This document shows, piece after piece, positions 59,101 to 62,100 of a stretch of DNA of 64,000 bases. Location: the NCBI RefSeq assembly GCF_011045215.1, contig NZ_CP049201.1; one strand, written 5' to 3'. Within the stretch, counting starts at the first letter, position 1. Every line of letters begins with the position of its first letter. The DNA comes from Escherichia coli (lineage in GTDB: Bacteria; Pseudomonadota; Gammaproteobacteria; Enterobacterales; Enterobacteriaceae). Made by a program: the position numbers.

Positions 59101-62100
59101 AACGTGAATTTTGGTGCTGTCTTCCGGGAATTTATCCGTCAGCCCTTTAATGTCGAAAATGCTGTTGAAGGTGTCGCCGTTAATACGCGTATCTTCAAAC
59201 GCGCCCAGCGCCTGCTCGCCAAGAGAACGGCGATCCACAAGGAAGAGAATGCGTTTAAAACGCTGAGACTGGATCAGGCGGAACATCATGGCAATTGCGG
59301 TGCGGGTTTTACCAGTACCGGTCGCCATCGCCAGCAGGATCTCTTGTTGACCCTTGACGATTGCCTTTTCAACCGCGCGGACAGCATCTTCCTGATAATA
59401 ACGCAGGCCCAGCTCGCTCATGCCAGGGTTGTCGGCAAACCACTGATTCTGTTTTTGCGGTTCGCTGCCGAGCATTTCCAGCAGCTCTTCCGGGCGATGC
59501 CACTCGGGTAAGGCTTTCGACATATTGCGGGTATCACGCACGTCGCGATACCAGATGCCGCTTTTAGTCTTCATCGCTGCGCGATATTCGCGCCCGTTTG
59601 TGGAGTAGCAGAAGGGGATTTTAAACCGTTGTTGGCCGCTGGTGTCCTGCCAGCTGGTTTCATACTCCGGCACCGCTTCATGCACTTCATCCGGTGAGTA
59701 ATGCTCAAGCAAGGTTTCCCGCAGGAAGCCATTATCGAAACATTTACTGTAGCGATACGACTCATTGAGCTTGGCGGGAACGTCGATATTTTTACGTTTC
59801 GCCTCTACCACCGCGATGGGTTTGAGGCCGACAAACAGCACATAATCCGCAAAGCCCTGATTACCCATTTCATCTTTCCCGGTCGGCCATTCGGCAATGG
59901 CTTTATTGACGCCGGGTTCCGGGCGCGCGCCTTTGGAGAAACGCAGGGTTTTGCTGTCGGCCTGCCAGCCCGCTTTACGCAGTTGGGCATCAATCAGGAA
60001 GCGGCTCTCTTCTTCGCTGAGGTTGAGCGTGCGCTTGATGGCCTGATCGGTAATTTCTTTGTGGTAAGCCTTACGTTCCTGTTCTGTCTGTTTGGCCAGC
60101 TCCGCGTTTTTCTCGGCGAGCTGTGCTTCAAGCGCCGCAAGGCGGGCCTGGGTTTGCGCTTCGGTTTCCTGCTGTTTACCTTCCAGAATGGCGATATAGC
60201 CGTTCAGGGCAACCAGCTTTTGCTGCTGCGCTTCGACTTCTGCCTGACTCTGCGCTTTTTCTCGCACCTGCTGTTCAAGCTGTTGTTTTAGCGTCAGCAC
60301 TTCCTGGTGATAGAGGTTTTCACCACGTTCCGGCAACACAAACACCGGCACCGAGAAGTCATAATCTTTAGTGACCAGACGGTAGTACCAGACAGCCAGG
60401 CGAAACCCGAGTCGCAGGCACATCTGGGCATCGTCGAGATCGTTATGATATTCGTGCACCGCCTGGTTACCAATGCGGCGTAATTTGTGGAATACAGAGA
60501 GAATGTTGTCATCAACGAAGGCGATTTTGCCGAGTTCGCGCAGGAGATCGTGTTGATTCTCACAAGGGGGGATGTTGAGTAACAGACCAAGATGTTTCGC
60601 TGTGGCTTCGCCAAACATACGCATTTTAATCAGCGTCGTGTTGGGATCATCCGGGTAGTTATTCTCCGCCGCACAGGCGATGGCATAAGTGAAGTCGTTG
60701 ACGCCCTTCAGGAATTCAAAATTGGATTTATTCATCATTGTTATTAATCCATTGCTGTGTGGGCCTGTCCAAATATTTAAGGCCCATAGCGCCTTATCTT
60801 AGCTTTCTGTACCTTTCCGGGCAATGACCACGGTCACAGCAACTGACTCATTTCTAACGTGTTCGTCTATTTTGGTAGTGTTATAGTAGCCGAAAAACAT
60901 CTACCTGATTCTGCAAGGATGTACTATGACGGTTCCTACCTATGACAAATTTATTGAACCTGTTCTGCGTTATCTGGCGACAAAACCGGAAGGTGCAGCC
61001 GCGCGTGATGTTCATGAGGCTGCCGCGGATGCATTAGGACTGGATGACAGCCAGCGAGCGAAAGTCATTACCAGCGGACAACTTGTTTATAAAAATCGTG
61101 CAGGCTGGGCGCATGACCGTTTAAAACGTGCCGGGTTGTCGCAAAGTTTGTCGCGTGGCAAATGGTGCCTGACTCCTGCGGGTTTTGACTGGGTTGCGTC
61201 TCATCCCCAGCCAATGACGGAGCAGGAGACGAACCATCTGGCCTTCGATTTTGTGAATGTCAAACTTAAGTCACGGCCGGATGCCGTCGATTTAGATCCG
61301 AAAGCCGACTCTCCCGATCATGAAGAACTTGCAAAGAGCAGCCCGGACGATCGGTTAGATCAGGCGCTAAAAGAGCTTCGTGATGCGGTGGCTGATGAGG
61401 TTCTGGAAAACTTATTGCAGGTTTCTCCTTCGCGCTTTGAAGTCATTGTTCTGGATGTTTTGCATCGCCTGGGGTATGGCGGCCACCGTGATGATTTGCA
61501 GCGTGTTGGCGGTACTGGAGATGGTGGCATCGATGGTGTGATATCGCTTGATAAACTTGGCCTGGAGAAAGTTTATGTTCAGGCAAAACGTTGGCGAACA
61601 CTGTAGGCAGGCCAGAATTACAGGCATTTTACGGCGCACTGGCTGGGCAAAAGGCGAAACGTGGGGTGTTTATTACCACTTCTGGATTTACGTCTCAGGC
61701 GCGTGACTTTGCTCAATCCGTCGAGGGTATGGTGTTGGTTGATGGGGAACGCCTGGTGCACTTAATGATCGAAAACGAAGTAGGGGTTTCTTCACGTTTG
61801 TTGAAGGTGCCGAAACTGGATATGGACTATTTTGAGTGAAATATCAGGCCGGATGCGGCTGCGCCTTATCCGGCCCATAACCCCTTACTTCCTCAACCCC
61901 GCAAACGCCGCCCGAATCTCATCCTCCGGCAGCTGAATCCCGATAAACACCATCGTGCTATGCGGTTTTTCATCGCCCCACGGGCGGTCCCAGTCGGCGC
62001 TGTAGAGGCGCTGGACGCCCTGGAACAGCAGGCGGTTAGGTTCGCCGTCAATCCATAGCATCCCTTTGTAACGCAGTAGTTTATCCGCCGATTCCAGCAG

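What the first reader, a model, noticed from the sequence alone, without database searches (positions are those of the whole stretch)
60926..61839. mrr appears inactivated by a frameshift
Seen in sequence: Mrr-like sequence is continuous at the protein level but switches frame near 61596-61606 (first ORF ends ...VYVQAKRWRTL, second begins MANTVGRPELQAF...). A lesion here would remove one methylation-dependent restriction activity while the neighbouring hsdRMS stays intact. It could also be a sequencing error.
Basis: seen in the sequence. Interest (0 to 1): 0.45.

Follow-up and report, generated by a model that had tools for sequence, protein, structure and literature searches.

The report
Recent one-base deletion breaks mrr
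In this E. coli strain the well-known restriction gene mrr is cut in two by the loss of a single base, a recent mutation that its closest relatives lack, and this kind of defence-gene decay is ordinary.

Summary
It differs only by one missing A between 61595 and 61596, the second base of codon Gln224 (GGC[A]GAAC).

This leaves ORF1 (226 aa: native residues 1-223, then RTL and a stop) and ORF2 (82 aa: native residues 225-304). The break falls in the middle of the nuclease domain, between Pfam Mrr_cat positions 58 and 59 of 115. It lies just after the strand carrying the Q219-A-K221 catalytic motif and before a conserved helix and further strands.

A sequencing error is unlikely:
- The missing base is not in a homopolymer.
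- A separate assembler's (Logan) build of read set SRR11014969 gives the same sequence, identical over 22 kb.
- The 7.5 kb around mrr has no other gap.

The deletion is private and recent:
- None of 950 complete E. coli genomes with mrr carries it.
- Three near-identical relatives, with the same HsdR protein and 1-3 SNPs per 7-8.5 kb, have intact mrr.

hsdR, hsdM and hsdS are intact, and so is a GmrSD-type enzyme in the same region. The best reading is a recent null allele of a dispensable gene. It is of low interest.

The parts
60926..61839 (+). mrr pseudogene (whole former coding region, 914 nt in place of 915)
   Evidence: It has 99.9% identity over its full length to annotated mrr in BL21, REL606, strain C and others. 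The matching spans in those records are 915 nt. There are no substitutions against the BL21 allele, only one gap.
60926..61606 (+). ORF1, 226 aa: native Mrr residues 1-223 (winged-helix Mrr_N domain, linker, first half of the nuclease domain with D203 and Q219-A-K221), then RTL and a TAG stop
   Evidence: ORF list. Pfam gives Mrr_N at residues 6-91 and Mrr_cat profile positions 2-58 of 115. Conserved columns come from the family alignment.
61595..61596 (+). Deletion junction: one A of codon 224 (CAG, Gln) is missing between these two bases
   Evidence: Pairwise alignment with BL21(DE3) mrr. It is the only gap in window 55558-63055 against two reference genomes. It is also the only indel against three near-identical relatives.
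61591..61839 (+). ORF2, 82 aa in the -1 frame: TTG start and Ala, then native Mrr residues 225-304 (second half of the nuclease domain)
   Evidence: ORF list. Pfam gives Mrr_cat profile positions 59-115 of 115, E 4.9e-18. Upstream there is only a 3-nt AGG as a Shine-Dalgarno-like element (read).
60789..60789 (.). Private A-to-G substitution in the hsdR-mrr divergent intergenic region, 137 nt upstream of the mrr ATG and 51 nt upstream of the hsdR ATG. Its effect is unknown.
   Evidence: All seven other loci compared have A. None of 948 complete genomes matches the 81-mer exactly.
57226..60738 (-). hsdR, intact (1170 aa), type IA restriction subunit
   Evidence: Open frame. Same length and no gaps against annotated hsdR. 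The exact protein is found on 10 contigs elsewhere.
55560..57149 (-). hsdM, intact (529 aa)
   Evidence: Open frame. Same length (1590 nt) and no gaps against annotated hsdM.
54187..55563 (-). hsdS, intact (458 aa), an uncommon specificity allele
   Evidence: 100% nucleotide identity to the annotated CDS WP_097315459.1 in NZ_OZ197100.1. This is the only full-length match among 5426 genomes. Pfam Methylase_S.
51478..53571 (+). Intact GmrSD-family type IV restriction gene (697 aa) in the same immigration control region
   Evidence: Pfam GmrSD_N, GmrSD_C and DUF5655. PADLOC match at E 1.6e-222. The same gene is broken in two relatives that keep mrr intact.

Best explanation
This is a real, recent, strain-specific null mutation of mrr. 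Loss of one A in codon Gln224 shifts the frame. Translation from the mrr start ends three codons later and gives a 226-residue product.

That product keeps the winged-helix DNA-binding domain, the linker, and the first helix and three strands of the PD-QxK nuclease fold, including D203 and Q219-A-K221. It lacks the following helix, two further strands and the C-terminal helices (residues 225-304). Those residues carry 17 of the 44 invariant or near-invariant family positions.

A half nuclease domain is not expected to fold or to form the Mrr tetramer and dimer. The strain should therefore be Mrr-negative: no restriction of DNA carrying Mrr-sensitive m6A or m5C marks, and no Mrr-dependent SOS response.

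Shown here: the lesion, its position in the domain, its reproducibility, and its absence from relatives. Inferred: loss of activity, and the cause. The cause is most likely neutral decay of a dispensable, mostly silent defence gene. Selection by an incoming methyltransferase is possible.
For: Single-base deletion, with the rest of the gene identical to the common allele. The domain is split at Mrr_cat profile positions 58/59 of 115.

The AlphaFold model of intact Mrr (pLDDT 90.7) has strands 201-207 and 215-221 before the break. After it come helix 229-241, strand 246-251, helix 257-265, strand 269-272 and helix 274-283. The best solved matches are MspJI and AspBHI.

In 97 full-length homologs of 32-62% identity, the conserved positions F235, G237, L239, A244, G247, T251, T252, A259, L271, D273, G274, L277, M281, G287, V288, D299 and F303 all lie after the break.

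Evidence against an artefact. The exact 226-aa and 82-aa products occur in the Logan assembly of SRR11014969. Its contigs are 100% identical to the window over 12,205 nt and 10,051 nt. The deleted A sits between C and G, not in a homopolymer. It is the only gap in 7.5 kb against two references.

Evidence that it is private and recent. None of 950 mrr-bearing complete genomes has it. The exact product is on a single contig among about 15 billion proteins. Three samples with an identical HsdR protein differ by 1-3 SNPs over 7.2-8.5 kb and encode a 304-aa Mrr.

Background. mrr is present in only 951 of 5426 complete genomes, and in 22% of immigration control regions according to PMC12707154. An unrelated frameshifted mrr exists in strain GN4741.
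Against: No raw reads were inspected. If the window was assembled from SRR11014969, the two assemblies share their data. A mixed population cannot be excluded.

No activity was measured. ORF1 still carries all three catalytic residues and the DNA-binding domain, so the loss of function is inferred from fold and conservation, not shown.

The strain has a second private change at the locus, A-to-G at 60789. This may hint at selection rather than neutral decay.
Confidence: 0.87

Rival explanations
1. The deletion is a sequencing or assembly error, and the strain really has an intact 915-nt mrr.
For: A single-base indel is the commonest assembly artefact. The allele is seen in one sample only. A second one-base deletion breaks another gene at 3980 in the same window.
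Against: The missing A is not in a homopolymer. Logan's assembly of SRR11014969, built with a different assembler, reproduces both deletions. It is 100% identical to the window over 22.2 kb, which noisy reads would not allow. All other gene-sized frames in the window are open, apart from an rpn gene that is also frameshifted in other strains.
Confidence: 0.07
2. The gene is still functional. Either -1 ribosomal slippage restores a full-length protein, or the 226-aa and 82-aa pieces are both made and reassemble.
For: The -1 frame is open from 61555 onward. Lys-tRNA on AAA (61586-61588) could re-pair one base back on A-AAA. ORF2 has a TTG start that overlaps the end of ORF1.
Against: A programmed frameshift would be conserved. 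None of 950 genomes has it, and near-identical relatives encode one frame. There is no X XXY YYZ heptamer, and a four-A run is too short for efficient slippage (read). Slippage at that site would replace the conserved R222 and W223. ORF2 has a TTG start and only a 3-nt AGG upstream. The split also falls inside the core sheet of the fold.
Confidence: 0.03
3. The mutation is real, but it was selected rather than neutral. The strain acquired a DNA methyltransferase, such as a Type III Mod or a phage or plasmid enzyme, whose marks make its own chromosome an Mrr target. Only mrr-null cells survived.
For: Mrr and the StyLTI Mod methyltransferase are mutually exclusive in experiments, and their close homologs are anti-correlated in genomes (PMC3152355). 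The lesion is very recent and has no further decay. There is a second private change 807 nt upstream in the mrr-hsdR control region.
Against: No methyltransferase other than hsdM is in the window. The same hsdS allele coexists with intact hsdM, hsdR and mrr in NZ_OZ197100.1, and in three near-identical relatives. The resident Type I system is therefore not the trigger. The rest of the genome could not be searched. Two private changes in 8.4 kb are too few to show clustering.
Confidence: 0.15

Closest known systems
EcoKMrr, the Mrr type IV restriction endonuclease of E. coli K-12 and B (WP_000217934.1 allele)
   Same: Same locus between hsdR and yjiA. Same domain order: winged-helix Mrr_N, then the Mrr_cat PD-QxK nuclease. 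No substitutions against the BL21/REL606 allele and 99.2% identity to K-12 mrr.
   Different: One A is missing in codon 224, so the nuclease domain is split between two frames. The intact enzyme is 304 aa. Here the product from the native start is 226 aa.
Frameshifted mrr of E. coli strain GN4741 (NZ_CM177112.1, annotated 'frameshifted')
   Same: Another natural isolate whose mrr is broken by a one-base deletion while hsdR next to it is annotated intact.
   Different: It is an independent event at another site: loss of a C from a CCCC run at gene position 280. It also has five substitutions against the allele here.
MspJI and AspBHI, Mrr-like modification-dependent restriction enzymes with solved structures (4F0P, 4OC8)
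   Same: They are the best solved structural matches to the model of intact Mrr. They share the PD-QxK catalytic domain (PMC12707154, PMC2938202).
   Different: They have an SRA-like N-terminal domain, not a winged helix. Sequence identity is only 14-20%. They serve here only to show which fold elements the truncation removes.

Membership tests
Mrr family (EcoKMrr-type type IV restriction endonuclease) | N-terminal Mrr_N winged-helix domain | tested here: met
   Pfam PF14338, E 1.7e-20, residues 6-91 of ORF1.
Mrr family (EcoKMrr-type type IV restriction endonuclease) | Catalytic residues of the PD-QxK site (D203, Q219, K221) | tested here: met
   All three are present in ORF1 (...DGGIDGV...VYVQAK...). 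They are near-invariant in 97 homologs. D203A is the published catalytic mutant (PMC5435990).
Mrr family (EcoKMrr-type type IV restriction endonuclease) | A complete Mrr_cat nuclease domain in one polypeptide | tested here: not met
   Profile positions 2-58 are in ORF1 and 59-115 in ORF2, in different frames. In the model the break lies between strand 215-221 and helix 229-241. By descent this is an mrr gene, but it is not an intact family member.
Mrr family (EcoKMrr-type type IV restriction endonuclease) | Position in the immigration control region, divergent from hsdR and convergent with yjiA | tested here: met
   Same gene order as BL21(DE3), 1504D004 and 23S01245-7.
Mrr family (EcoKMrr-type type IV restriction endonuclease) | Restriction of m6A- or m5C-modified DNA, and an SOS response to M.HhaII or high pressure | not testable with these tools
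   This needs transformation or phage plating and reporter assays in the strain.
Programmed -1 ribosomal frameshift genes (dnaX or IS-transposase type) | The frameshift is conserved among homologs | tested here: not met
   None of 950 complete genomes has it. Three near-identical relatives encode a single 304-aa frame.
Programmed -1 ribosomal frameshift genes (dnaX or IS-transposase type) | A slippery X XXY YYZ heptamer in the overlap of the two frames | tested here: not met
   The overlap 61555-61603 has only GCA AAA CGT, a four-A run (read).
Indel-type sequencing artefact | The lesion lies in a homopolymer and is not reproduced by another assembly | tested here: not met
   The deleted A is flanked by C and G. 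The Logan assembly of SRR11014969 reproduces it. Read-level depth was not inspected.

The most novel reading that the evidence does not exclude
The frameshift may be the footprint of a recent conflict between Mrr and a newly acquired DNA methyltransferase elsewhere in this strain's genome. That would be the natural counterpart of the laboratory finding that Mrr and Type III Mod enzymes cannot coexist. The private A-to-G change at 60789 in the mrr-hsdR control region could belong to the same episode.
Probability: 0.12. Interest if true: 0.35.

Novelty: already known. Interest (0 to 1): 0.1.

Why it matters
It matters little beyond this strain. Mrr is a well-studied and dispensable type IV restriction enzyme. 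It is absent from about four in five E. coli genomes, and occasional frameshifted copies are already annotated.

For anyone working with this isolate, the practical point is that it is probably Mrr-negative while keeping an intact type I system and a GmrSD-type enzyme. That affects which methylated DNA it will accept.

Near-identical relatives with intact mrr are available. The isolate and those relatives would therefore make a clean natural pair for testing whether mrr loss follows the gain of a methyltransferase.

Tried and rejected
- **Junction scan of genome contigs:** an exact 39-nt junction pattern gave 0 matches, so the source genome and allele are not among the species representatives.
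- **Solved structures by sequence:** intact Mrr gave no hit at E <= 0.01. I used an AlphaFold model and Foldseek instead.
- **Exact-product look-up at the second frameshift:** the 183-aa product starting at 3500 found nothing. The 179-aa product starting at 3512 did.
- **Promoter and terminator scan of 60700-61950:** no promoter-like site, and one weak hairpin at the chance level.
- **tRNA scan of the window:** nothing found. Only the last 25 nt or so of leuX remain at about 2800.
- **Conflict between Mrr and the resident Type I methylation:** rejected, because the same hsdS allele coexists with intact mrr elsewhere.
- **Error-prone assembly:** rejected. Gaps against two references are few. 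They are intergenic, or compensated within a few bases, or in frame, except at mrr, at 3980, and in the rpn gene whose frameshift is shared with other strains.
- **Programmed frameshifting:** rejected, because the shift is not conserved and there is no slippery heptamer.

Full report
**1. What is in the sequence**

The window is the E. coli chromosomal region that runs from the leuX-side island through fim, uxu and the yji genes. It ends in the immigration control region: a GmrSD-family gene, symE, hsdS, hsdM, hsdR, mrr, yjiA, yjiX and btsT.

At the reported coordinates there are two overlapping open frames on the + strand:
- 60926..61606, 226 aa, ending ...VYVQAKRWRTL.
- 61591..61839, 82 aa, TTG start, MANTVGRPELQAF....

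Pfam finds Mrr_N and positions 2-58 of the 115-position Mrr_cat profile in the first frame. It finds positions 59-115 of the same profile in the second.

**2. The lesion**

The 914-nt stretch matches annotated mrr of BL21(DE3), REL606, strain C and many wild isolates at 99.9%. The matching span in each of those records is 915 nt.

Alignment to BL21(DE3) shows one difference only. An A is missing between window 61595 and 61596, GGC-GAAC against GGCAGAAC. It is the second base of codon 224 (CAG, Gln).
- ORF1 is native residues 1-223, then Arg-Thr-Leu and a stop.
- ORF2 is two non-native residues, then native residues 225-304.

**3. Real mutation or error**

Four results argue for a real mutation.
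- **Context.** The deleted A is flanked by C and G and is not part of a homopolymer.
- **Independent assembly.** The exact 226-aa and 82-aa products are on record from the Logan assembly of read set SRR11014969. That contig is 100% identical to window 50926-63130 over 12,205 nt. A second contig of the same run is 100% identical to window 1-10051. The window is longer than either contig, so it comes from a different assembly. Two assemblers thus agree base for base over 22 kb, which noisy reads would not allow.
- **Local cleanliness.** The deletion is the only gap in window 55558-63055 against two reference genomes.
- **Window-wide cleanliness.** Elsewhere the gaps against references are intergenic, in frame, or compensated within a few bases. 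The exceptions are an rpn-family gene, which is also frameshifted in other strains, and one further private deletion at 3980.

I did not see raw reads. If the window was built from the same run, the two assemblies share their data. This is the remaining doubt.

**4. How widespread and how old**

None of the 950 complete RefSeq E. coli genomes that carry this part of mrr has the deletion. Every one falls in the 95-99% identity band for an 81-nt probe, and the best reach 80 of 81. Among about 15 billion catalogued proteins, the 226-aa product is on one contig only.

A look-up of the window's exact HsdR protein found 10 contigs. The three other distinct places are GCA_013049645.1, ERR3329136 and SRR8297627. 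Each encodes a 304-aa Mrr next to that HsdR. They differ from the window by only 1-3 substitutions plus this deletion over 7.2-8.5 kb. The deletion is therefore private to the SRR11014969 strain and recent. The absence of any further decay in the gene fits this.

**5. Consequence for the protein**

According to a 2025 review (PMC12707154), EcoKMrr is an N-terminal winged-helix domain fused to an Mrr-cat nuclease with a PD-QxK site. D203A is the published catalytic mutant (PMC5435990).

I collected 150 family representatives and aligned 96 full-length ones with intact Mrr. D199, G201, D203, D209, Q219, A220 and K221 are invariant or nearly so, and they lie before the break. Seventeen further invariant or near-invariant positions, F235 to F303, lie after it.

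An AlphaFold model built on this alignment has mean pLDDT 90.7. In the nuclease domain it shows, in order:
- helix 168-181;
- strands 191-193, 201-207 and 215-221;
- the break at residue 224;
- helix 229-241, strand 246-251, helix 257-265, strand 269-272 and helix 274-283.

The best solved matches are the Mrr-like enzymes MspJI (4F0P) and AspBHI (4OC8). From established knowledge of the PD-(D/E)XK fold, its core is helix-strand-strand-strand-helix-strand. The truncation removes the second core helix and the fourth core strand.

I infer that neither fragment folds into a nuclease and that the strain is Mrr-negative. This was not measured.

mrr is transcribed divergently from hsdR and convergently with yjiA, so no polar effect on the neighbouring genes is expected.

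**6. Alternatives considered**

*Programmed -1 frameshifting or a working two-piece enzyme.* This is very unlikely:
- The shift is not conserved in any other genome, nor in near-identical relatives.
- The overlap has no slippery heptamer, only a four-A run.
- Slippage there would replace the conserved R222 and W223.
- ORF2 has a TTG start with a weak upstream AGG.

*Selection for mrr loss by methyltransferase conflict.* This is a serious idea because Mrr and the StyLTI Mod enzyme are mutually exclusive in experiments (PMC3152355). The resident Type I system is not the trigger. An hsdS allele 100% identical in nucleotides coexists with intact hsdM, hsdR and mrr in NZ_OZ197100.1 and in the three close relatives. 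Whether the strain carries another, private methyltransferase could not be checked, because only this window and two contigs were available.

**7. Context**

mrr is present in only 951 of 5426 complete genomes. The review gives 22% of immigration control regions for Mrr and 12% for GmrSD.

In an evenly spaced sample of 60 of the 951 matching genomes, 59 held a full-length copy. One of these (GN4741) is annotated as frameshifted, through an independent loss of a C at gene position 280.

Relatives with a very similar region show other losses. Strains 1504D004 and 23S01245-7 keep mrr but have a broken GmrSD gene. 1504D004 also has a broken hsdS, and 23S01245-7 a frameshifted yjiR. Piecemeal decay of defence genes at this locus is thus the norm.

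Here the hsdR, hsdM, hsdS and GmrSD genes are intact.

**8. Verdict**

This is a recent private null allele of a well-known and dispensable gene. It is almost certainly real, and it is of low general interest.

The only reading with some novelty is that the loss was forced by a newly acquired methyltransferase. I put that at about 12%.

Noticed in passing
window 3512-5547 (+), lesion at about 3980: A second private one-base deletion (G in TTTCT[G]AAAAT) splits a 678-aa hypothetical protein into 179-aa and 482-aa frames. The protein is intact in strain PS10-3 (WP_248748121.1) and has no Pfam or PADLOC match. The same split is in the Logan assembly of SRR11014969.
   Followed up: partly
window 60789: A private A-to-G change lies in the divergent hsdR-mrr intergenic region. 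Seven other loci have A, and none of 948 complete genomes matches the 81-mer exactly. It lies in the loop of a weak hairpin at 60778-60796. Its effect on hsdR or mrr expression is unknown.
   Followed up: partly
window 51478-53571 (+): An intact 697-aa protein with GmrSD_N, GmrSD_C and DUF5655 domains lies between yjiS and symE. From memory, that is where K-12 carries mcrBC. In strains 1504D004 and 23S01245-7 the DNA has the same length but is annotated as broken. The window differs from 23S01245-7 by a single base in 2094.
   Followed up: partly
window 683-2599 (-), 6173-7045 (-), 7178-7828 (+): The left-end island next to a leuX remnant carries more modification-dependent nuclease candidates. 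They are a 638-aa GmrSD_N protein, a ScoMcrA-like protein with a phosphorothioate-DNA-binding domain and an HNH domain, and a ScoMcrA_N/HNH protein. An AAA_15/AAA_21 ATPase lies just beyond the window start, in L007.
   Followed up: no
window 48442-49385 (+): An Rpn-family recombination-promoting nuclease gene is split into two frames. The same gene is annotated as frameshifted in both relatives examined, so this lesion is older and shared.
   Followed up: partly
window 57226-62841: mrr has no substitutions against the BL21 allele. The flanking genes are clearly diverged: hsdR by 3.4% (96 of 2813) and yjiA by 2.6% (25 of 960). mrr is much more uniform across strains than its neighbours.
   Followed up: no
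window 32790-38030 (-): A 1746-aa inverse autotransporter adhesin, with an IAT_beta domain, eight Big_1 repeats and Invasin_D3/D4 domains, lies between the yjiH/kptA region and yjiJ.
   Followed up: no
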